Of a DNA stretch of 12,079 nt, positions 50 to 12,079 are shown one piece after another. The notes below the pieces were generated by a model. That model was not told the DNA's origin, searched no databases, and saw nothing but the letters and a program-made list of their open reading frames with translations. The DNA comes from a virus. The DNA lies in UHGV virus genome UHGV-0141735; one strand, written 5' to 3'. How positions within the stretch are numbered: position 1 is the stretch's first letter; each line of letters opens with the position of its first letter. The translations under genes and the position numbers were made by a program.

Positions 50-1285
50 TTACGTGTGCAGTGTATGTTCGATTTTTTGATGTTTGAATAACCGATCAAC
101 CAATAATTCAAGTTTGTGAAAATCTGTAAGAGGATATAGCTTCACGATGTCTTCCTCAAAATTCGCTATACCTGATAATTTTTCTTTTTTTCGTAAGTAA
201 TCGATGGCAATTCTTTGTTCATTCGATATCTCAAACTGATTTTGATAATCTAAGGTTTTAAGTACTTGCCAAGACATAGGGGCTGTAAATTCGAAGTAAG
301 AAGCTAGTTTTGGACAAAAATCATATTGAATAGATTGCTTATAGGTTGCTTTAGGTGGTAATACAACATTAACAGAATATTTACTGCTCCTAGAATTCGG
401 CATTTTTGTAGAGTAATATGCTATCCCCGCTATTGGTGATTTAACCCGACGACCGATCCACTGCATTAATAAATTTGGGATTATATATTCAGGTGTGAAT
501 GATGAATTTTCTACGCGTTTTAAATAATTGCAAGCGATTAGTAATGGCCAGAATATCAAGTATGATGCTTTTGTTCTGTTTTCATCATATATTTTATTTT
601 CATCAACAGTTTTTTTAATTGGAAGTGAAAGGTGAGGAGAAGCAAAATTTAAAATTGTTGAATTTACATCGTTTGTAACGAAGGATGATATATATAATTT
701 ATCAAAATCTGGCTTTCCCATCTCTTGCCAACATACGTACAAGGATGTACCGAGATATAAGCAGGGTTGGCCTGCGACTGAATATCTTTGAGCATTCACT
801 AAATGTCTTTTTGAAAACGGAATATGAAATATTTGGTTGTGCTCAATCAAAGGGGTTTCTGATTTTCTGACCCGATAAAGTGGCTTTTCCTTATTGCAAA
901 AATCTTTTAGCAAGATACTAATTCGATTTAGTTGGGCTATTGTTGCCTCCTTTGACATAATGTCATCGAAAATGTCATATGCTTTTTTAATATCTCCAGA
1001 CAAAAACTCCTCTAGAGTTTTTTGTATGCACTTATGAATATTTGCAACTCGTCCTTTTAGAACTCTAAGTTCCCTACCGCATCCATTCATGTCTGCTTTT
1101 ATTGATTCATCAATTAAAGTCATATAAATTTTACATCGATTAGAAAAATCACTGGCTATATCGCCTTTAATGTTGAATGGTGGATTTAATTCTTCATGGC
1201 TCAATAGTCGCTCAAGAAAGTGATCAATCCAGAGTGCATTTTTCTTTTCTGATTCTAATTGAGTACTGGATTTTTTTTCGTCCAT
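50..1285 (-). CDS. Hypothetical AT-rich cargo protein (411 aa) with a central RES-like (Arg-Glu-Ser, NAD+-targeting toxin-type) region; function unproven
   Basis: Intact 411-codon ORF. Its ATG (1283-1285 on the minus strand) lies 4 nt downstream of the int stop, same orientation. Sample 60-nt lines count about 27-30% GC by hand, against about 60% in a gpA line. Motifs LYRVRK, then QRYSVAGQPCLYLGTSLYVCWQE, then AYYSTK...SVNVVLPP resemble the RES-domain core pattern (R ... G.P.LY.s.s...A..E ... S). Pattern-level only. Confidence 0.6.
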   Translation of the reverse strand: MDEKKSSTQLESEKKNALWIDHFLERLLSHEELNPPFNIKGDIASDFSNRCKIYMTLIDESIKADMNGCGRELRVLKGRVANIHKCIQKTLEEFLSGDIKKAYDIFDDIMSKEATIAQLNRISILLKDFCNKEKPLYRVRKSETPLIEHNQIFHIPFSKRHLVNAQRYSVAGQPCLYLGTSLYVCWQEMGKPDFDKLYISSFVTNDVNSTILNFASPHLSLPIKKTVDENKIYDENRTKASYLIFWPLLIACNYLKRVENSSFTPEYIIPNLLMQWIGRRVKSPIAGIAYYSTKMPNSRSSKYSVNVVLPPKATYKQSIQYDFCPKLASYFEFTAPMSWQVLKTLDYQNQFEISNEQRIAIDYLRKKEKLSGIANFEEDIVKLYPLTDFHKLELLVDRLFKHQKIEHTLHT

Positions 1286-1289
1286 GTTT

Positions 1290-2306
1290 TCACTCTATAT
1301 AGTTTAAAGGATTTTTAGTTACCGCATCCTCCAGATGATCTGGAGAAAAGTGCGCATAAATCATGGTCATTTTTATATCGGCATGGCCTAAAATTTCTTT
1401 AAGCACAAGTATGTTTCCTCCGTTCATCATAAAATGGCTGGCGAATGTATGACGTAATACATGGGTGCATTGACCCTCAGGAAGCTCAATATCGGCCCGC
1501 TTTACTGCACGCTCAAAGGCTTTTCTGCATGGTGAGAATAACTTCCCTCGATTTTTAGGAAGTTCGTTGTACAGATCCTGAGATATTGGCACGGTACGGT
1601 TTTTCTTGCCCTTCGTCTTGGTATAAGTGATGCGGTATTTGGATAATTGATGGCCCTGCAGATTTTCTGCTTCACTCCACCGTGCGCCAGTAGCTAGGCA
1701 TATTTTTGCAATCATTAGTAAGCTAGGGCTTTGAGATTCAGCACATGCCGCCAACAGGCGCTTGATTTCGTCCGTGGAAAGAAAAGCCAGCTCACCTTCG
1801 GCAATTTTGAAGGTCGGAAGTCCTGCCAGCGGGTTTGGTGCTGACCAGTGTCCTAGTTTTTTTAATGTACCGAACACCGATGATAGATTGCGCTGTTCAA
1901 GGTTTACCGTGCGGGGCTTAACGGGCGACATAAGCGTGCCATCTTCATTTCGTATTTCACCTTTTAACCGTGCTTCGCGGTATTTCGTAAAGTCTCCGGC
2001 TGTCAGTTCTGAGGCGATGGGGTCGCCTAGGCCATTACAGATAATTCTAAGTTTCGCCATGAGGCGCTTGGGGTCTGCGAGTGTCTGACCATACAGGGAA
2101 TACCAAAGCTCAATTAATTCTGATAGGCGTCGCCGATCATCCTTTTCACCCAACCACGGTTTTTTATTCACTTCTTCCATTGTGAAGCTTTCAAACGCAA
2201 TGGCTTCGCCTTTCGTGGCAAATTGCTTACGCACGCGCTTGCCATTGCGTCCATTGGGATAGCACTCGCACAACCATTTTCCGTTCGGCTGTTTTCTGAT
2301 GGTCAT
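1290..2306 (-). CDS. int: Tyrosine recombinase / phage integrase, P2/186 Int family
   Basis: 338 aa. C-terminal catalytic signature HVLRHTFASHFMMNGGNILVLKEILGHADIKMTMIYAHF (HxxR ... Y nucleophile), an upstream TGARWSEA box, and N-terminal GRNGKRVRKQF...AFE typical of P2-type Int. Its start is 1 nt from the repressor stop, the C-int operon layout. Confidence 0.95.
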   Translation of the reverse strand: MTIRKQPNGKWLCECYPNGRNGKRVRKQFATKGEAIAFESFTMEEVNKKPWLGEKDDRRRLSELIELWYSLYGQTLADPKRLMAKLRIICNGLGDPIASELTAGDFTKYREARLKGEIRNEDGTLMSPVKPRTVNLEQRNLSSVFGTLKKLGHWSAPNPLAGLPTFKIAEGELAFLSTDEIKRLLAACAESQSPSLLMIAKICLATGARWSEAENLQGHQLSKYRITYTKTKGKKNRTVPISQDLYNELPKNRGKLFSPCRKAFERAVKRADIELPEGQCTHVLRHTFASHFMMNGGNILVLKEILGHADIKMTMIYAHFSPDHLEDAVTKNPLNYIE

Positions 2307-2307
2307 A

Positions 2308-2940
2308 TCAAAGGCTCTTAATGATTTTCAGTGCGCGGCCTACTACCTCAATGTCATCCAGACCGCACTCAAACGATGAATCATCCTGATGCACTACTAA
2401 TTTGTTTCCCGGGAGTCGTGTCAATTTAACAATGCTTTTTATCCCGTCGATGTCCACTAACCACATACCATTTACTGGTGGTGTTTGGTTGCGATCTATT
2501 AAATAAGAATCACCAGAAGTAGTCACCAGCAGCAGGTTGCTTGAATCTGAGGGGAGTATGCTGCTATCAATGATTGCTTTTCCCGCATCGATCAATAAAC
2601 CACCGTTGAGAGTCGCCTTGTCAATTTCAGGAGATACTAGTTCAGAAAGAGGTACAACCTTGCTGGAGTTCACGGAATTGATATTTTTTTTAGGTTCAAT
2701 GTTTGGACCTGGCTCCCCCTGTCCGGTGGTTAGCCACAGTAAAGAAACTCCTGTTTCCAAGGCGCACTGAATCACCCACTCTGCAGGAAAACTATCTCTT
2801 AAGTATCTGTTTGCCATGGTGCTTTTTGATGCGCCTAAGTGATCGCAAAGTTGCTGTCTGGACTTGAAATCATAGGCTGCCATTAGTCTATGGATAGCCT
2901 CTCTTCCCCCTGTATTCTCTCCAACCTTTACCTGTATCAT
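2308..2940 (-). CDS. cI: Phage CI-type immunity repressor (N-terminal HTH, C-terminal oligomerisation/regulatory domain)
   Basis: 210 aa. Transcribed leftward from the early control region directly into int. N-terminus (RLMAAYDFKSRQQLCDHLGASKSTMANRYLR) looks like a phage CI-repressor HTH. The position matches 186 cI / P2 C. Confidence 0.8.
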   Translation of the reverse strand: MIQVKVGENTGGREAIHRLMAAYDFKSRQQLCDHLGASKSTMANRYLRDSFPAEWVIQCALETGVSLLWLTTGQGEPGPNIEPKKNINSVNSSKVVPLSELVSPEIDKATLNGGLLIDAGKAIIDSSILPSDSSNLLLVTTSGDSYLIDRNQTPPVNGMWLVDIDGIKSIVKLTRLPGNKLVVHQDDSSFECGLDDIEVVGRALKIIKSL

Positions 2941-5736: not shown

Positions 5737-6563
5737 AAGAAATGCACCACGGAATTCATCATTTCCATGGGACGCCTGTCTGGGGAAGTGCTGGCGACGT
5801 TCATCGTATTGCGGTGAGCGGAGCTGGTGCTTTCGTCTCCTATGTACGACCAGATCAGATTGCGGCGTCCATTCAGCACGCTCAGGTCGTCGGCATTGAT
5901 AACGGCGCATTTTCTGCATGGGTGCGTGGGCTAAAAATTAACTGGAGTGATTTTTATAAATGGCTCCTGAACTATTACCACCATCCTAAGGTCGCTTTTT
6001 TTGTCATTCCTGATGTTGTGGACGGAGGTGAACGTGACAATGATGCCCTGATAAACGAAGTTCCGAAAATGTTCTACGGGAAGGCAACTCCCGTCTGGCA
6101 TCTGCACGAGTCAATCGATCGGCTTATCGAGCTATGTCGTGAATGGCCTCGTGTCTGCTTTGGATCGTCTGGTGAATATGCGGCTATTAGAACTGCGCAC
6201 TGGCATCGTCGTATGCAGGACGCTTTTGAAGCAATTTATTGCCGACACAATTTCAAAACAGCTGTTCATGGTTTGCGCATGCTTGACGGTCGTGTGTTGG
6301 GAAATTACCCACTGGCGACTGCCGACAGTACAAATCTTGCCTGCAATGTCCCCAAATTTAATAGCAAATATCCTGAGCTTACGCGGGCTATTCAGGAGGC
6401 TGAGTATTCGCGCAATCTGACGGAAAAGGAGCTGAAAGCTGTCATTCTGAAAAACCGTTGCGCAATTTTAAAAGGTGCAATTGAAGCTGTTCGCCCACCT
6501 TCAGTTTCTGACTGGCTGTCGAATGGTTTGCAGCCTTCACAGCTCGAACTGGAGATTGCGTAA
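5733..6563 (+). CDS. Conserved hypothetical protein (276 aa); possible TGT/DpdA-like DNA-modification enzyme (speculative)
   Basis: Start (GTG 5733 or ATG 5742) overlaps the dam stop and its stop overlaps the gpA start (TAATG), so it is translationally coupled inside the early operon. [12 protein letters not shown] resembles the DSGGFQ catalytic-Asp motif of tRNA-guanine transglycosylase-fold proteins, but the Cys/His zinc site is not evident. Confidence 0.6.
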
Positions 6564-8935
6564 TGAACTACAGCTATTCCTGGAATGCTGAGAAAAAAGC
6601 AATCAATCCTTACGTAGAGACAGAAGAGCAATCTTCAGTTTCTGCGCTTTCAAACCTGATCACTCTGTACGCTGTCGATAACGAGCAGGAACAACTGCGT
6701 CGCGAGGCACTGAGTGATCAGGTCTGGGAGCGTTATTTCTTTAATGAATCCCGTGATCCTGTCCAACGCGAAATGGAGCAGGATAAGCTCATTAGTCGGG
6801 CAAAGCTGGCGCATGAGCAGCAGCGTTTTAATCCGGATATGGTCATTCTGGCGGACGTCAACGCCCAGCCTTCCCATATCAGCAAGCCGCTGATGCAACG
6901 TATTGAATACTTCAGCAGCCTGGGCAGGCCAAAGGCTTATTCCCGCTATTTGCGTGAGACGATTAAGCCATGTCTGGAACGGCTGGAGCATGTACGCGAC
7001 AGTCAGCTATCCACTTCTTTTCGCTTTATTGCGAGCCATGAAGGGCTGGACGGCCTGCTGATCCTGCCTGAAATGAGTCAGGATCAGGTGAAACGCCTGT
7101 CCACCCTGGTAGCTGCGCATATGAGCATGTGCCTTGATGCCGCTTGTGGTGATTTGTACGCCACCGATGATGTTAAGCCAGAAGAAATCCGCAAGACATG
7201 GGAAAAGGTGGCAGCGGAAACCCTGCGTCTGGATGTCATCCCGCCTGCGTTTGAGCAACTCCGCCGGAAAAGAAACCGCCGTAAACCCGTGCCCTATGAA
7301 CTCATTCCGGGTTCGCTGGCGCGTATGTTGTGCGCTGACTGGTGGTACCGGAAATTATGGAAGATGCGTTGCGAATGGCGGGAAGAGCAGTTGCGTGCTG
7401 TCTGCCTTGTCAGCAAAAAAGCATCTCCCTATGTCAGCTATGAAGCCGTGATGCATAAACGTGAGCAGCGCCGTAAGTCGCTGGAGTTTTTCCGTTCTCA
7501 TGAACTGGTGAACGAAGACGGCGACACGCTGGACATGGAGGATGTGGTAAACGCCAGCAGCAGCAACCCTGCGCATCGCCGCAATGAGATGATGGCCTGT
7601 GTTAAAGGTCTGGAGCTTATCGCGGAAATGCGTGGCGACTGCGCCGTTTTCTACACCATCACCTGTCCGTCACGTTTCCATTCCACGCTAAATAACGGCA
7701 GGCCCAACCCGACCTGGACAAATGCGACGGTAAGACAAAGCAGTGATTATCTGGTCGGCATGTTTGCTGCATTTCGTAAGGCGATGCACAAAGCCGGATT
7801 GCGCTGGTATGGCGTGCGGGTGGCTGAGCCGCATCATGACGGCACAGTTCACTGGCACCTGTTGTGTTTTATGCGCAAAAAAGACCGCCGCGCCATTACT
7901 GCTTTGTTGCGTAAGTTTGCCATTCGTGAAGACTGCGAGGAGCTGGGTAATAACACGGGGCCACGCTTTAAGTCTGAGCTGATAAACCCGCGCAAAGGAA
8001 CGCCGACAAGCTACATCGCGAAATATATCAGCAAGAACATTGACGGGCGTGGTCTGGCTGGCGAGATCAGCAAGGAAACGGGTAAATCTCTGCGTGATAA
8101 CGCTGAATACGTGAATGCCTGGGCGTCTTTGCATCGTGTTCAGCAATTCCGCTTCTTTGGTATTCCGGGACGTCAGGCTTACCGTGAACTTCGCTTGCTG
8201 GCTGGTCAGGCGGCAAGGCAACAGGGTGACAAAAAAGCAGGTGCGCCGGTACTGGATAACCCGCGTCTTGATGCCATTCTGGCTGCTGCTGATGCTGGTT
8301 GTTTTGCCACCTACATCATGAAGCAGGGCGGCGTACTGGTTCCCCGTAAATATCACCTCATCAGAACCGCTTATGAAATCAACGAAGAGCCGACCGCCTA
8401 TGGCGATCACGGTATTCGTATTTATGGCATCTGGTCACCCATTGCAGAGGGCAAGATCTGCACTCATGCAGTGAAGTGGAAAATGGTTCGTAAAGCCGTT
8501 GACGTTCAGGAGGCGGCAGCCGACCAGGGCGCTTGCGCCCCTTGGACTCGTGGCAATAACTGTCCCTTTGCTGAAAATTTGAACCAACAGGAGAAAGATA
8601 AATCAGCTGATGGGGACCCCAGAACGGACATTACCAGCATGGATGACAAGGAGTTGCACGATTACCTGCACAGTATGAGCAAAAAAGAGCGCCGGGAACT
8701 GGCAGCAAGGTTACGCCTGGTGAAACCGAAACGGCGTAAAGACTACAAACAGCGAATTACAGACCATCAGCGACTGCAGCTCGTGTATGAGCTGAAGTCC
8801 AGAGGATTTGATGGCAGCGAGAAAGAGGTCGATTTACTCCTTCGCGGAGGCAGTATTCCGTCAGGAGCAGGCCTGCGTATCTTCTATCGGAACCAGCGTT
8901 TGCAGGAAGATGATCAGTGGCGGAACCTGTATTAA
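6563..8935 (+). CDS. A: Rolling-circle replication initiator endonuclease (P2 gpA family, HUH relaxase-type)
   Basis: 790 aa. HUH motif VHWHLLCF and paired catalytic tyrosines YIAKYISK (YxxKY) in the expected order and spacing. Size and position match P2/186 gene A. Confidence 0.9.
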
Positions 8936-9029
8936 TTACGCGGGTTAACAATTCGTGCTCTTAATAATACCAGGCATATCAGGCTGATGAACGTAAAAAA
9001 ACGTTTTACATCAGTAAGATTATTATATA

Positions 9030-9045
9030 CTGTAAATATAAACAG
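9030..9045. promoter_or_regulatory. LexA (SOS) box CTGTAAATATAAACAG
   Basis: Perfect CTGT-N8-ACAG palindrome, AT-rich centre, flanks TA...TG (tactgtaaatataaacagtg), about 44 bp upstream of ATG 9089. Confidence 0.55.
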
Positions 9046-9088
9046 TGGTTATACATACAGTATTGCGTGTGGTGTCATAGGAGGAAAG

Positions 9089-9277
9089 ATGCAGGACTAT
9101 TTTTTGGAGTCTTTGAAGCTCCAGCGCATTGATTTTTTTCTTAAGCTTGTAGCGGCTAGTGAGTGTAGTGATGAAGAGAAGGGGCTGGCTCTGCAGTGGG
9201 TTTCTGAATTGACTGATGAACTCATGGCAAAAATCAGAACCCACGAATACAACCGCTCAATGGATGTCATCAGCTGA
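9089..9277 (+). CDS. Small hypothetical protein (62 aa), first gene of the SOS-controlled module
   Basis: ATG 9089 with AGGAGG 4-5 nt upstream, downstream of the LexA box. The longer 8987 start would place the LexA box inside the coding region, so the short form is preferred. Confidence 0.4.
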   Translation: MQDYFLESLKLQRIDFFLKLVAASECSDEEKGLALQWVSELTDELMAKIRTHEYNRSMDVIS

Positions 9278-9287
9278 GGTGACTTTT

Positions 9288-9521
9288 ATGCGCATTGAAA
9301 TAATGATCGATAAAGAGCAGAAGATTAGCCAGTCTACCCTAGACGCCCTTGAATCCGAGCTTTACCGCAATCTGCGCCCCCTGTATCCCAAAACGGTAAT
9401 TCGCATTCGCAAAGGTAGCTCTAACGGTGTGGAACTAACCGGACTGCAACTGGACGAAGAAAGAAAACAAGTGATGAAAATTATGCAGAAGGTGTGGGAA
9501 GACGACAGCTGGCTGCATTAA
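9288..9521 (+). CDS. DinI-family protein (186 Tum-like SOS-inducible module)
   Basis: 77 aa, MRIEIMIDKEQ...LDALESELYRNL...KIMQKVWEDDSWLH, collinear with E. coli DinI (MRIEVTIAK...ILQETWESADDWF). GAGGTG RBS 6 nt upstream. Confidence 0.85.
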   Translation: MRIEIMIDKEQKISQSTLDALESELYRNLRPLYPKTVIRIRKGSSNGVELTGLQLDEERKQVMKIMQKVWEDDSWLH

Positions 9522-9656
9522 GAAACGTTGCTGGCGTCTGAACTTGCTTCTGGCGTCAGCAAGGTTGAACAACGAGCCCTTGCGAGGCGTTAGCTCTGTA
9601 GTGCATGTCTATGCCGCATGAGATCGCATGATCGTTTGAGGATCGTTTTTGCTAAG

Positions 9657-9680
9657 GCCCGCCAGAACTGGCGGGCTTTT
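9657..9680 (+). terminator. Rho-independent terminator closing the early/SOS operon
   Basis: GCCCGCCAG / CTGGCGGGC inverted repeat (9-nt arms) followed by TTTT. Confidence 0.55.
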
Positions 9681-9854: not shown

Positions 9855-10553
9855 ATGGTTATGTTAGTGGATGACTGTCCACGATGTGGATCACAAAAAA
9901 TAGCGTTTGATGTTAATGGGCTGAATTGCACTAGGGTTTACAATGCATTGGGCGGGGGTAAAACATACGAGTACGAGGTCTATTGTGTTTGCCGAGAGTG
10001 TCATAAAACGACAATGTTTCTTTGCAGACCTTTAACGAAAAATAAAAATTTAGATGGCTATAATTGGGAAAGTGGAATATTCGGCTTAAAGGAAGTTGCA
10101 GAGGTTGTTAGGCCTATATCACCGGCAGACTTAGCAGTAGAGGAGCCACCAGAGTTCTTACCTGAGCATATCAATAGTGCATATGAGGAAGGGGCGAAAT
10201 GTTTGGCTATAGGTTGTTATAATGCAGCAGCAACCATGTTTAGGCTTTGCCTTGATTATGCCACAAAAGGACTTCTTCCTGATGGGGAGCAAGGGCCTGC
10301 GCAAAAAATAAGGAGAAGCCTAGGGTTAAGAATGGAGTGGTTATTTGATAATCATCTACTGCCTGAAGCTTTAAGGGAACTAGCTGAATGCGTTAAAGAT
10401 GACGGAAATGATGGAGCGCATGAAGGTATTTTGGATAAAGCTGCTGCTGAGGATCTTGAAGATTTTACCTATCTTTTTTTAGAACGGCTTTACACTGAAC
10501 CTCAACGCCTTATCGAAGCCAAGACAAGGCGTGAACAAAGAAGAAACAAATAA
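9855..10553 (+). CDS. AT-rich cargo protein (232 aa): N-terminal four-Cys zinc ribbon plus acidic all-alpha C-terminal domain; unknown function, defence candidate
   Basis: Strong RBS AGGGAGGAG 8 nt upstream of ATG 9855 and an AT-rich upstream region. CPRCG...CVCRECH zinc ribbon. C-terminal LRELAECVKDDGNDGAHEG motif. Sits between the cos-like site and the portal stop (8-bp gap), convergent with the portal fragment. Confidence 0.75.
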   Translation: MVMLVDDCPRCGSQKIAFDVNGLNCTRVYNALGGGKTYEYEVYCVCRECHKTTMFLCRPLTKNKNLDGYNWESGIFGLKEVAEVVRPISPADLAVEEPPEFLPEHINSAYEEGAKCLAIGCYNAAATMFRLCLDYATKGLLPDGEQGPAQKIRRSLGLRMEWLFDNHLLPEALRELAECVKDDGNDGAHEGILDKAAAEDLEDFTYLFLERLYTEPQRLIEAKTRREQRRNK

Positions 10554-10561
10554 GTTCGGAA

Positions 10562-11200
10562 TTATTCTTCTGAAAGAATATAGGGCGTAAATTTAATCAC
10601 TTCTTCGCCCAGCCAGTCGTTCAGCTCTTGTAGCCTTTTTTGCAAGGGCGTTAATTCATTACGTACAAATACGCGACTGGCCTTCTCCACATCCCCAAAC
10701 CCTCCAACATTATTAGGCATAATCCCCATCATTTGCGGCGGCACGCGGTGCGCAGCCATCATGTCGTCGCGGCTGACATTTTTGATATTCAAAAACTCAT
10801 CCTTCGCCGCGACTTCTGACAATGGGATGATCTGAAGCCCGTCTTTTTTGCCGTTAGGCGAGTACATAAACAGGTTGCGGAAGTTGCCTGGACCTTTGGC
10901 GCTTTTCATCGCATTGCGGAGGTTGTTCACATCCTCCTGGTTTTGCGCGGCATCGGTCATGTACATGATAAAGCCCGCATGACTGCCGTTAATGTAATAC
11001 TTGCGACGGAACAGCGTGGCGGACTCGTTGAGCAGGGCTGACGGAATGGCAGAAAGATAACCGGGCAGGCCGTAGATCTCCTGATTAATATCCGGTTCCA
11101 TCAGATGAAAAATGCTGCCTTTCGTGAACTGATACGGCTGGGTTGTCATACCGTATTGCACAAACCAGTAGGTAACGGTTTTACGACCAGTATTGAACTT
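10562..11200 (-). pseudogene. Q: 5'-truncated portal gene (P2 gpQ family), C-terminal roughly 210 codons retained
   Basis: From about TGRKTVTYWFVQ to the C-terminus (DMMAAHRVPPQMMGIMPNNVGGFGDVEKASRVFVRNELTPLQKRLQELNDWLGEEV) the translation reads as a portal protein. The ORF's N-terminal 45 residues are low-complexity and overlap the ogr start, so the upstream boundary (about 11200) is approximate. Confidence 0.65.
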
Positions 11201-11301
11201 GAAGTGAAAATTGGTGATCTTGAAATGGAATAAATGGTTCTCAATATTGATATTTTGTGTATCATTGCAATGATTCTGATAGCAAAGGTAGGGATCTGGA
11301 T

Positions 11302-11520
11302 ATGATGAATTGTCCAAAGTGTGGTCATGCGGCGCACACAAGGAGCAGTTTTCAAGTAACAGAAAGCACCAAAGAGCGTTACTGCCAGTGCCAAAATATT
11401 AACTGCGGGAGCACTTTTGTTACCCATGAAACAGTGGTCCGGTTTATTGTGACACCTGCAGTGATTGCCACAGCCCCTCCACATCCATTGCCAGGTGGTC
11501 AGGGCCATATGAATTTTTAA
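11302..11520 (+). CDS. ogr: Ogr/Delta-family zinc-finger late-gene transcriptional activator
   Basis: MMNCPKCGHAAHTRSS...KERYCQCQNINCGSTFVTHETVVRFIV...PHPLPGGQ is collinear with P2 Ogr (CxxC-x22-CxC-x4-C). Start at ATG 11302 preferred over the longer 11257 ORF. Confidence 0.9.
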   Translation: MMNCPKCGHAAHTRSSFQVTESTKERYCQCQNINCGSTFVTHETVVRFIVTPAVIATAPPHPLPGGQGHMNF

Positions 11521-11527
11521 GAAAGAG

Positions 11528-11549
11528 AACCTGCTACGGCAGGTTTTTA
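11528..11549 (+). terminator. Hairpin plus T-tract after ogr (AACCTGC-TACG-GCAGGTT-TTTTA)
   Basis: 7-bp stem, 4-nt loop, followed by TTTTTA. The stop of the convergent minus-strand gene lies in the T-tract. Confidence 0.45.
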
Positions 11550-12029
11550 TTCATCTGGGATCTCACCCGTTTCAAGAAAATGTATAAAGCCAGGCTCATC
11601 TATGATGATAGTGCCTTTCATCCTGGCTGCCGATACTTTTGATGGGCCTGCATTGTAACCGCAACAGAGCATCTGAAGGTTTTGGGTTACAGATGTTCTT
11701 ACCGTTAATCCTTGTTCATTCGCCTTATCAACCAACCTTTCTTTATCTGCTTTCTTAAATCCGGTGAAACACACATCGAATGTATTTTTTTTCGGACCTG
11801 ACTGCTTAGTGAGATGTGAGTAGTTTTCGGGGAGGAATGACGCGCATTCCTGAATGGCTTGTTCTTGTGAATCGTATTGTTTAAGAATGCGGTCTTTTCG
11901 GAAGGTTTTTATTCGATCGGTGTTCTTACAAATGCCCTGTATGTGATTTTCGCTATAACTGATGCTCTGTATTGAGTGAACACCGATACGACCATTTGCA
12001 TTGATGTAAACAAAGTGAAGTTCTTCCAT
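11547..12029 (-). CDS. Small BRCT-domain protein (160 aa) with a beta-rich N-terminal domain; unknown function
   Basis: Good SD (AAGAGG) upstream of ATG. C-terminal VCFTGFKKADKERLVDKANEQGLTVRTSVTQNLQMLCCGYNAGPSKVSAARMKGTIIIDEPGFIHFLETGE fits the BRCT pattern (hydrophobic-TG start, central G-G/S-K, C-terminal hydrophobic acidic end). AT-rich relative to the prophage core. Confidence 0.65.
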   Translation of the reverse strand: MEELHFVYINANGRIGVHSIQSISYSENHIQGICKNTDRIKTFRKDRILKQYDSQEQAIQECASFLPENYSHLTKQSGPKKNTFDVCFTGFKKADKERLVDKANEQGLTVRTSVTQNLQMLCCGYNAGPSKVSAARMKGTIIIDEPGFIHFLETGEIPDE

Positions 12030-12079
12030 GTCAAACCTCTTTGCATGATTTCAAGATGGCGACAGGCAAGATGGACGCA

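What the first reader, a model, noticed from the sequence alone, without database searches (positions are those of the whole stretch)
9028..9521. SOS-controlled two-gene module ending in a DinI-family protein
A perfect LexA box (CTGTAAATATAAACAG) precedes a 62-aa ORF and a DinI-like gene. In phage 186 a LexA-repressed promoter drives the Tum antirepressor, which has a DinI-like part, giving UV and SOS inducibility. Here the function appears split into two small genes in different frames, which could be a variant antirepressor arrangement or a decayed tum.
Basis: partly seen in the sequence, partly recalled or inferred. Interest (0 to 1): 0.35.

Follow-up and report, generated by a model that had tools for sequence, protein, structure and literature searches.

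The report
Split Tum SOS module of P2-like prophage
This is the known DNA-damage switch of Fels-2/PSP3-type (P2/186-like) prophages: a LexA-repressed promoter drives a small antirepressor gene and a separate DinI-like gene, so it is real and intact but ordinary.

Summary
A strong LexA box (TACTGTAAATATAAACAGTG, 9028-9047) precedes a 62-aa ORF (9089-9277) and a 77-aa DinI-family ORF (9288-9521).

The "variant antirepressor arrangement" reading is right. The "decayed tum" reading is wrong.
- ORF1 is a remote but significant homologue of the N-terminal half of phage 186 Tum. ORF2 matches the C-terminal, DinI-like half.
- Both ORFs are under strong purifying selection (dN/dS about 0.06-0.09 at dS about 1).
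- Each has its own ribosome-binding site, and the lengths are invariant across several Peduoviridae genera.
- The spacer and frame offset between the ORFs vary among relatives, so they are independent cistrons.

The arrangement is already described. PSP3 annotates the pair as tumA/tumB, with tumA linked to UV induction. Fels-2 STM2728 is 98% identical to ORF1 and is followed by a DinI gene.

- A second, overlapping LexA box (9043-9062) gives a colicin-type double operator that is conserved in relatives.
- The same TumA allele occurs with CI repressors only 42-57% identical overall. Their N-terminal DNA-binding domains stay at least 63% identical, which hints that TumA targets that domain.
- The prophage here has lost its late genes.

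Interest is low.

The parts
9005..9010 (+). -35 hexamer TTTACA of the p95-like SOS promoter
   Evidence: Invariant in window, 813R9, Fels-2, SopEPhi, SEN8, Yersinia MLG42 and Klebsiella phages while the spacer sequence differs. Assignment is by analogy with the annotated 186 p95 promoter. The simple promoter scan did not call it.
9028..9033 (+). -10 hexamer TACTGT (17-bp spacer); the alternative is TATACT at 9026-9031 (15-bp spacer)
   Evidence: The 186 record annotates TACTGT, the first six bases of its LexA site, as the p95 -10. The same geometry occurs here and is conserved in relatives. This is inferred, not mapped.
9028..9047 (+). LexA box 1, TACTGTAAATATAAACAGTG (full CTGT-N8-ACAG core)
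   Evidence: no match to the strict pattern in 200 shuffles. Present with a perfect core in all nine close relatives examined.
9043..9062 (+). LexA box 2, CAGTGGTTATACATACAGTA (left half-site degenerate), overlapping box 1 with a 15-bp offset
   Evidence: Conserved at the same offset in 8 of 9 relatives. It aligns with the single LexA box of 186 and PSP3. The Fels-2 version is identical to the second SOS box of the ColE1 cea operator. [quoted passage not shown]
9079..9084 (+). Shine-Dalgarno AGGAGG for ORF1
   Evidence: Read from the sequence. GGAGG is invariant in the alignment of upstream regions, including 186 and PSP3.
9089..9277 (+). tumA-type gene: 62-aa acidic two-helix protein, the presumed CI antirepressor
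   Evidence: phrog_698 at 3.6e-38, phrog_8554 at 2.4e-8 and phrog_1993 at 2e-3. 186 Tum residues 1-70 hit the same families, phrog_698 at 5.9e-6 in register. A family HMM built here ranks 186 Tum as the best non-member among 1190 ORF segments, E=0.007. It is 98.4% identical to Fels-2 STM2728. dN/dS is 0.065-0.074. AlphaFold2 gives a helical hairpin at pLDDT 90.
9276..9282 (+). Shine-Dalgarno GAGGTGA for ORF2, overlapping the ORF1 stop codon
   Evidence: Every relative has a purine-rich SD in a 10-12-nt spacer.
9288..9521 (+). tumB/dinI-type gene: 77-aa DinI-family protein
   Evidence: Pfam DinI at 6.6e-23. phrog_189 positions 71-148 of 151. 41% identical to 186 Tum residues 71-145. Matches E. 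coli DinI structure 1GHH at E=2.7e-6 over the full length. dN/dS is 0.058-0.089.
9524..9566 (+). Stem-loop directly after the dinI stop codon (11-bp core 9528-9562), with no U-tract: a possible partial terminator or mRNA 3' stabiliser
   Evidence: Its position matches that of t95a in 186. Similarity to distant relatives ends near window position 9595. Function is inferred.
9654..9680 (+). Intrinsic terminator: GC-rich 11-bp stem followed by TTTT
   Evidence: In Klebsiella phage 4LV2017 the homologous stretch lies beyond an inserted gene, so it flanks the cargo hot spot rather than belonging strictly to the module.
2308..2940 (-). cI: 186-type immunity repressor, the presumed target of TumA
   Evidence: Pfam Phage_CI_repr at 5.4e-31 plus Phage_CI_C at 6.4e-28, with no peptidase S24 domain. 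33% identical to 186 CI.

Best explanation
This is the SOS induction module of a Fels-2/PSP3-type P2-like prophage: a split version of the phage 186 tum gene.

Proposed mechanism:
1. In undamaged cells, LexA occupies two overlapping boxes that cover the -10 region and the likely start site of a promoter lying just after replication gene A.
2. DNA damage activates RecA, LexA cleaves itself, and a bicistronic mRNA is made.
3. The first product, TumA, is a 62-aa acidic helical hairpin. It binds the 186-type CI repressor, which cannot cleave itself, and keeps it off its operators. The early lytic promoter then fires.
4. The second product is a DinI homologue that binds RecA filaments and tunes the strength or duration of the SOS signal.

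What is shown here: the sequence features, their conservation, the homology and the purifying selection. What is inferred from 186, PSP3, Fels-2 and colicin operators: LexA binding, SOS induction, the TumA-CI interaction and the DinI role.
For: - Operator and promoter. The geometry matches the annotated 186 p95 promoter and LexA site.
- ColE1 comparison: the ColE1 cea operator has the same double-box layout. It sits between a TTGACA promoter and the colicin E1 start codon and shares 29 of 35 bases with the window. PMC2994835 states that colicin double boxes bind two LexA dimers.
- ORF1 and the Tum N-terminal half. ESSI-2-type homologues are intermediate in sequence between the two.
- ORF2 and the DinI / Tum C-terminal half.
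- Same gene order after gene A in 186, PSP3, Fels-2, SopEPhi, SEN8, Cartapus and in Klebsiella and Yersinia phages.
- PSP3 GenBank note for tumA: 'similar to 5' end 186 tum; UV induction of prophage'. For tumB: 'similar to dinI and 3' end of 186 tum'.
- PMC3121763: Fels-2 and PSP3 have tum split in two. In PSP3 the upstream gene carries the antirepressor activity.
- Tum sequesters CI after LexA-dependent p95 derepression: PMC7708051.
- The CI here is 186-type with no autocleavage domain.
- Purifying selection and invariant lengths. Independent Shine-Dalgarno sequences and variable spacers.
Against: - No experiment was done on this sequence.
- ORF1 is only 14-17% identical to PSP3 TumA and to the 186 Tum N-terminal half. 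BLASTP finds nothing, so the homology rests on profile matches.
- The functional evidence for PSP3 TumA is a personal communication cited second-hand. The Fels-2 paper (Bunny et al. 2002) could not be read here.
- Box 2 has two mismatches in its left half-site and would not stand on its own.
- The promoter scan did not call the promoter.
- The prophage in this window has lost its late genes, so the module cannot lead to phage production here.
Confidence: 0.85

Rival explanations
1. The two ORFs are a decayed tum: frameshift fragments of a once-fused gene with no remaining function.
For: The two ORFs do align to the two halves of 186 Tum and sit in different frames. The prophage itself is a deletion remnant.
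Against: - dN/dS is 0.06-0.09 for both ORFs against four relatives at dS about 1, and the lengths of 62 and 77 aa never change.
- Each ORF has its own Shine-Dalgarno sequence and ATG.
- Relatives use TGA, TAA or TAG and spacers of 10, 11 or 12 nt, so the split state has persisted through much divergence.
- Viable phages (Fels-2, SopEPhi, PSP3, Cartapus, SEN8) carry the same split.
- 186 itself keeps an internal AAGGAGG-GTG start for a DinI-only product.
Confidence: 0.03
2. ORF1 is not the antirepressor. The module is mainly an SOS-regulated dinI cargo gene, as in lambdoid prophages, and ORF1 has another or no role. Induction, if any, would depend on something else.
For: - ORF1 has no Pfam, NCBIfam or PDB match, and fold search gives nothing at E<=0.001.
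- Identity to characterised Tum/TumA is only 14-17%.
- The same TumA allele occurs with CI proteins only 42-57% identical, which is unexpected for a specific binder.
Against: - Profile matches link ORF1 to the Tum N-terminal half in register.
- Position, promoter and LexA control are the same as for tum and tumA.
- ESSI-2-type phages keep the ORF1 homologue with its LexA box but no dinI, so ORF1 is the constant element of the module.
- The CI has no autocleavage domain, so an antirepressor is needed for SOS induction.
- The CI N-terminal domain stays 63-100% identical wherever this TumA type occurs.
Confidence: 0.08
3. Recoding (a +1 frameshift or stop-codon readthrough at the ORF1 stop) produces a fused, 186-like Tum protein of about 143 aa. 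The split would then be only apparent.
For: In the window, a +1 shift at AGC-UGA-G would read GAG GTG ACT TTT ATG and join the two ORFs. The ORF2 frame is open for 25 codons upstream of its ATG. In PSP3 and Yersinia MLG42 the ORFs are in the same frame.
Against: The frame offset differs among close relatives (0, +1 and +2). So do the stop codon and the length of open upstream frame (1-25 codons). No single recoding mechanism is therefore conserved. No known slippery motif is present at the stop. Every spacer carries a Shine-Dalgarno sequence suited to independent initiation.
Confidence: 0.02

Closest known systems
PSP3 tumA/tumB and the Fels-2 STM2728/STM2726.1 pair (split tum of 186-like and P2-like phages)
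   Same: Same position after gene A, same LexA-controlled promoter, same order of small antirepressor gene then DinI-like gene, and same sizes (60-62 and 77 aa). ORF1 is 98.4% identical to Fels-2 STM2728.
   Different: Against PSP3: TumA is only 14% identical. PSP3 has a single LexA box, and its two genes are in the same frame, separated by TAG plus one codon. Against Fels-2: essentially none in the module. The CI differs (57% identity), and the window's prophage lacks the late genes.
Phage 186 Tum (146-aa LexA-controlled antirepressor expressed from p95)
   Same: Homologous N-terminal and C-terminal halves, the same promoter and operator position, and the same type of CI target. 186 also makes DinI-only products from internal starts.
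   Different: 186 has one fused ORF and one LexA box, and orf97 follows it in the operon. Here there are two cistrons, two overlapping boxes, and unrelated cargo (a DUF4145 protein) downstream, beyond a terminator.
Colicin (ColE1 cea) double overlapping SOS operator
   Same: Two 20-bp LexA boxes offset by 15 bp, just after the -10 region. 29 of 35 bases are identical to ColE1, and Fels-2 box 2 is identical to ColE1 box 2.
   Different: It controls a prophage antirepressor rather than a colicin operon. Cooperative binding of two LexA dimers was not tested here.
Gifsy prophage dinI-gfoA/gftA SOS operons (Salmonella)
   Same: A LexA-controlled operon that combines a DinI homologue with a small antirepressor acting on a non-cleavable repressor (PMC3121763).
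   Different: The gene order is reversed (dinI first). The antirepressor and repressor families are unrelated, and the phages are lambdoid rather than P2-like.

Membership tests
Tum/TumA-type LexA-controlled antirepressor of 186/P2-like phages | Sequence homology to the N-terminal (non-DinI) half of 186 Tum | tested here: met
   ORF1 hits phrog_698 (3.6e-38), phrog_8554 (2.4e-8) and phrog_1993 (2e-3). Tum residues 1-70 hit the same three families (5.9e-6, 3.4e-12, 1.5e-23) in register. The family HMM hits Tum residues 6-43 at E=0.007 among 1190 segments. The link is remote: 17% identity and no BLASTP hit.
Tum/TumA-type LexA-controlled antirepressor of 186/P2-like phages | Gene located just downstream of replication gene A, under its own promoter overlapped by a LexA box | tested here: met
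   Gene A ends at 8935, the boxes lie at 9028-9062 and the ORF starts at 9089. The layout is the same in 186, PSP3 and Fels-2.
Tum/TumA-type LexA-controlled antirepressor of 186/P2-like phages | Resident repressor is 186-CI type and lacks a RecA-stimulated autocleavage domain | tested here: met
   PF07022 plus PF16452 only, with no S24 peptidase domain.
Tum/TumA-type LexA-controlled antirepressor of 186/P2-like phages | The protein binds CI and prevents operator binding; the prophage is UV/SOS inducible | not testable with these tools
   Known for 186 Tum (PMC7708051). Reported for PSP3 TumA only second-hand (PMC3121763).
DinI family (PF06183) | Full-length match to the DinI profile above the curated threshold, in a protein of about 80 aa | tested here: met
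   81.3 bits against a 24.2-bit cutoff, covering profile positions 1-63 of 63. Aligns to 1GHH residues 1-77, including the C-terminal W-E-x-D-x-W stretch.
DinI family (PF06183) | Orthologue of chromosomal E. coli DinI (NCBIfam equivalog NF007893) | tested here: not met
   42.7 bits against a 111-bit cutoff. It is a phage TumB-type paralogue, not the host dinI.
DinI family (PF06183) | Binds RecA filaments and modulates the SOS response | not testable with these tools
   Inferred from family membership and from the 186 record's note that short Tum products modulate SOS induction.
Colicin-type double SOS operator | Two LexA boxes overlapping with a fixed 15-bp offset at the promoter | tested here: met
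   Boxes at 9028-9047 and 9043-9062, with the same offset in relatives and in ColE1.
Colicin-type double SOS operator | Occupied by two LexA dimers, giving tight repression | not testable with these tools
   Stated for colicin operators in PMC2994835. Not measured for this operator.
Pseudogene (decayed tum) | Relaxed selection, variable truncation, loss of translation signals | tested here: not met
   dN/dS is 0.06-0.09, lengths are invariant, and Shine-Dalgarno plus ATG are conserved.

The most novel reading that the evidence does not exclude
TumA recognises the conserved N-terminal DNA-binding domain of 186-type CI repressors. One TumA allele can therefore inactivate CI proteins of several prophage types. 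A defective remnant like this one could then act as an SOS-triggered trans-inducer of co-resident P2-like prophages. The colicin-like double LexA operator would set a high damage threshold for that decision.

Support so far is only correlative. Identical TumA occurs with CI proteins whose C-terminal domains are as little as 32% identical while the N-terminal domains stay at least 63% identical. Across 12 phages, TumA identity tracks CI N-terminal-domain identity (Spearman 0.81) far better than C-terminal-domain identity (0.38). These come from 66 non-independent pairs and are confounded by overall relatedness.
Probability: 0.25. Interest if true: 0.4.

Novelty: already known. Interest (0 to 1): 0.15.

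Why it matters
The finding has little importance in itself. It correctly identifies how this family of prophages senses DNA damage, but that is textbook knowledge for 186 and is annotated for PSP3 and Fels-2.

It has three practical uses:
- The 62-aa gene is labelled "hypothetical protein", or wrongly "levan regulatory protein", in almost all records. It could be annotated as a TumA-type antirepressor.
- The double LexA operator and the mix-and-match of one TumA allele with divergent CI proteins give testable ideas about induction threshold and cross-induction among P2-like prophages in Enterobacterales.
- A remnant prophage that keeps this module may still respond to SOS and influence other prophages.

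Tried and rejected
- BLASTP of ORF1 against 186 Tum found nothing. Profile searches were needed to see the homology.
- Pfam, NCBIfam and PDB sequence searches of ORF1 found no match.
- The AlphaFold2 model of ORF1 is a confident two-helix hairpin. Foldseek against PDB and BFVD gave only generic helical hairpins, none at E<=0.001, so it says nothing about function.
- An Rfam scan of the whole window found no match.
- The simple promoter scan did not call the SOS promoter. The terminator scan called only a weak site at 9266-9283 inside the ORF1/ORF2 junction, which I regard as chance.
- A literature search for tumA/tumB returned only unrelated papers. Bunny et al. 2002 (PMC151935) is not held.
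- The recoding (frameshift or readthrough fusion) idea was rejected because the frame offsets vary among relatives.
- The decayed-gene idea was rejected on dN/dS.
- Within the close TumA group there is no correlation between TumA and CI divergence, so no fine-scale co-evolution can be claimed.

Full report
**What is in the sequence**

The window is the early region of a P2/186-like (Peduoviridae) prophage. Its genes, in order:
- integrase, 1290-2306 (-)
- a 186-type CI repressor, 2308-2940 (-), with Pfam Phage_CI_repr plus Phage_CI_C and no autocleavage domain
- cox/apl, cII, a Dam methylase, and replication gene A, 6563-8935

After gene A the features are as follows:
- The sequence TACTGTAAATATAAACAGTG lies at 9028-9047.
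- A 62-aa ORF runs 9089-9277, with AGGAGG five bases upstream of its ATG.
- A 77-aa ORF runs 9288-9521. Its GAGGTGA ribosome-binding site overlaps the ORF1 stop codon. It is a full-length DinI-family protein (PF06183, 6.6e-23).

The minimal LexA core, CTGT-N8-ACAG, occurs once in the window against 0.14 expected by chance. The stricter TACTGT-W8-ACAGT occurs once and in none of 200 shuffles.

**A second LexA box**

Immediately after box 1, with a 15-bp offset, lies CAGTGGTTATACATACAGTA (9043-9062). It has a good right half-site and a degenerate left half-site.

- In an alignment with 186 and PSP3, this second box aligns with their single LexA box. Box 1 is extra.
- Both boxes, at the same offset, are present in Fels-2, 813R9, Cartapus, 4LV2017, SopEPhi, a Yersinia phage and a Klebsiella Gegevirus. 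SEN8 has three mismatches in box 2.
- The layout is that of the ColE1 colicin operator, TGCTGTATATAAAACCAGTGGTTATATGTACAGTA. I confirmed that this operator lies between a TTGACA promoter and the colicin E1 start codon.
- 29 of its 35 bases match the window. Fels-2 box 2 is identical to ColE1 box 2.
- 186, PSP3 and ESSI-2-type phages have a single perfect box.

**The promoter**

TTTACA (9005-9010) and TATACTGT (9026-9033) are invariant among relatives, while the 15-17 bases between them vary freely. By analogy with the annotated 186 p95 promoter, whose -10 is the TACTGT of the LexA site, I assign -35 TTTACA, a 17-bp spacer and -10 TACTGT. TATACT with a 15-bp spacer is the alternative. Either way box 1 overlaps the -10. 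The transcription start has not been mapped.

**What the two proteins are**

ORF2 is 41% identical to residues 71-145 of 186 Tum. It matches E. coli DinI (1GHH) along its whole length. It scores below the NCBIfam cutoff for the chromosomal DinI orthologue, so it is a phage paralogue.

ORF1 has no Pfam, NCBIfam or PDB match, and BLASTP against Tum finds nothing. The link to Tum comes from profile searches:
- ORF1 belongs to phrog_698 (3.6e-38) and also hits phrog_8554 (2.4e-8) and phrog_1993.
- The first 70 residues of 186 Tum hit the same three families, phrog_698 at 5.9e-6, with residues 6-44 matching positions 6-44.
- An HMM built from 90 distinct ORF1 homologues ranks 186 Tum as the best non-member among 1190 ORF segments (E=0.007, same register).
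- ESSI-2-type homologues (37-43% identical to ORF1) are visibly intermediate in sequence.

ORF1 is therefore a remote homologue of the antirepressor half of Tum. AlphaFold2 predicts a two-helix hairpin (helices 2-23 and 28-61, pLDDT 90). The one residue besides the start Met and Ala34 that is invariant across all five aligned sequences, including 186 Tum and PSP3 TumA, is Cys26, and it lies in the turn. The protein is acidic, with 12 acidic and 7 basic residues.

**Not a decayed gene**

- Against four relatives whose synonymous sites are nearly saturated (dS 0.9-1.5), dN/dS is 0.065-0.074 for ORF1 and 0.058-0.089 for ORF2. The lengths stay at 62 and 77 aa.
- The junction differs among relatives: TGA with a 10-nt spacer, TAA with 11 nt, TAG with 12 nt, and in PSP3 TAG with 3 nt.
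- The frame offset is therefore +1, +2 or 0, always with a Shine-Dalgarno sequence in the spacer.
- This pattern fits two independently translated cistrons. It rules out a recent frameshift and any conserved recoding mechanism.
- The genes also recombine independently. Cartapus has an ORF1 with identical protein sequence (dS 0.09) but an ORF2 at dS 1.28.
- ESSI-2-type phages carry the ORF1 homologue with its LexA box and no dinI at all.
- 186 keeps an internal AAGGAGG-GTG start that aligns exactly with the PSP3 tumB ATG. The PSP3 stop codon aligns with a Gly codon two codons upstream. Within one genus, fused and split states thus differ by a single codon. The split state is the common one.

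**Already known**

- The PSP3 GenBank record names the pair. tumA is noted as "similar to 5' end 186 tum; UV induction of prophage". tumB is noted as "similar to dinI and 3' end of 186 tum".
- Lemire et al. [quoted passage not shown] They cite Bunny, Liu and Roth 2002 and a personal communication from G. E. Christie.
- ORF1 is 98.4% identical to Fels-2 STM2728, which is followed by the DinI gene STM2726.1.
- ORF1 is 100% identical to the gene in many Klebsiella and E. coli phages.
- 482 protein clusters match ORF1 across Enterobacterales. Almost all are called hypothetical.

**How it most likely works**

By homology with 186, whose mechanism is summarised in PMC7708051:
1. LexA holds the promoter off.
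2. DNA damage leads to LexA cleavage and transcription of tumA-dinI.
3. TumA sequesters CI, and the early lytic promoter is derepressed.
4. Repression returns when the SOS signal ends.
5. The DinI-like protein presumably acts on RecA filaments to tune the signal. The 186 record notes that short DinI-only Tum products modulate SOS induction.

A stem-loop without a U-tract follows the dinI stop codon (9524-9566), at the position of the 186 partial terminator t95a. A strong intrinsic terminator lies at 9654-9680. None of the binding or induction steps has been tested for this sequence.

**A lead on the target surface**

The same or nearly the same TumA occurs with CI proteins that are 42-57% identical overall (Fels-2, 813R9, Cartapus, 4LV2017).

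By domain, against the window's CI:

| Group | CI N-terminal (HTH) domain | CI C-terminal domain |
|---|---|---|
| Six phages with this TumA type | 63-97% | 32-76% |
| 186 and PSP3 (very different TumA) | 39-41% | 35-37% |

A seventh, SEN8, added, has an identical N-terminal domain (100%) and an 86% identical C-terminal domain.

Over 12 phages, TumA identity tracks the N-terminal domain (Spearman 0.81) far more than the C-terminal domain (0.38). There is no correlation within the close group. The pairs are not independent and the result is confounded by overall relatedness. Still, it fits an acidic TumA binding the DNA-binding domain, and it suggests possible cross-induction among P2-like prophages.

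**Context**

The prophage in this window is a remnant.
- Its portal gene keeps only the part homologous to Fels-2 Q residues 143-342.
- From about 11173 the sequence is 100% identical to the end of gene D plus ogr in intact E. coli prophages. In those prophages about 21 kb of late genes lie in between.
- The module can therefore no longer trigger phage production here, although it looks intact.

**Verdict**

The decay alternative is rejected. The arrangement is already known and common, so interest is low.

Noticed in passing
window 10562-12079: The prophage is a deletion remnant. Portal gene Q (10562-11341, minus strand) keeps only the part homologous to Fels-2 Q residues 143-342. From about 11173 the sequence is 100% identical to the 3' end of gene D plus ogr (11257-11520) and a BRCT-like ORF (11547-12029) of intact E. 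coli P2-like prophages. In those prophages about 21 kb of late genes lie in between.
   Followed up: partly
window 9855-10553; L011 9048-11983; L002 10932-12083: The stretch between dinI and the portal gene is a variable cargo site. Here it holds a 232-aa DUF4145 protein with an N-terminal Cys-rich motif. Klebsiella phage 4LV2017 has a 225-aa ORF plus a retron St85-family effector and a polymerase. Phage 813R9 has a Hypoth_Ymh-domain protein. These are probably anti-phage defence cargo.
   Followed up: no
window 50-1285 (minus strand): A 411-aa ORF next to the integrase has no Pfam or NCBIfam match. In matching E. coli prophages the feature names listed include an anti-phage dCTP deaminase and a dsDNA nuclease domain protein, but their position relative to the integrase was not checked.
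   Followed up: no
L008 1388-1820 (phage Cartapus) compared with window 9089-9521: Cartapus tumA encodes an identical protein (dS 0.09), but its dinI is at dS 1.28. A recombination joint therefore lies between the two genes, showing that they are exchanged as separate modules.
   Followed up: partly
L012 901-1113 and L013 from 901 (ESSI-2-type phages): These Peduoviridae carry a TumA homologue (37-43% identical) behind a single perfect LexA box. They have no dinI gene: a divergent regulator gene and the portal gene follow directly.
   Followed up: partly
L011 1998-2939 (CI of Klebsiella phage 4LV2017): The annotated 313-aa CI ORF contains two tandem copies of the CI helix-turn-helix domain (alignment). 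The cI CDS of PSP3 (286 aa) and Cronobacter ESSI-2 (305 aa) are also unusually long. It is unclear whether the extra copy is translated or what it does.
   Followed up: no
database records matching window 9089-9277: The TumA-type gene is annotated 'hypothetical protein' almost everywhere and 'levan regulatory (domain) protein' in some Klebsiella phage and UniRef entries, which looks like a mis-annotation. Many gene calls start at the upstream ATG at 8987 (96 aa), which would run through the promoter and LexA boxes.
   Followed up: no
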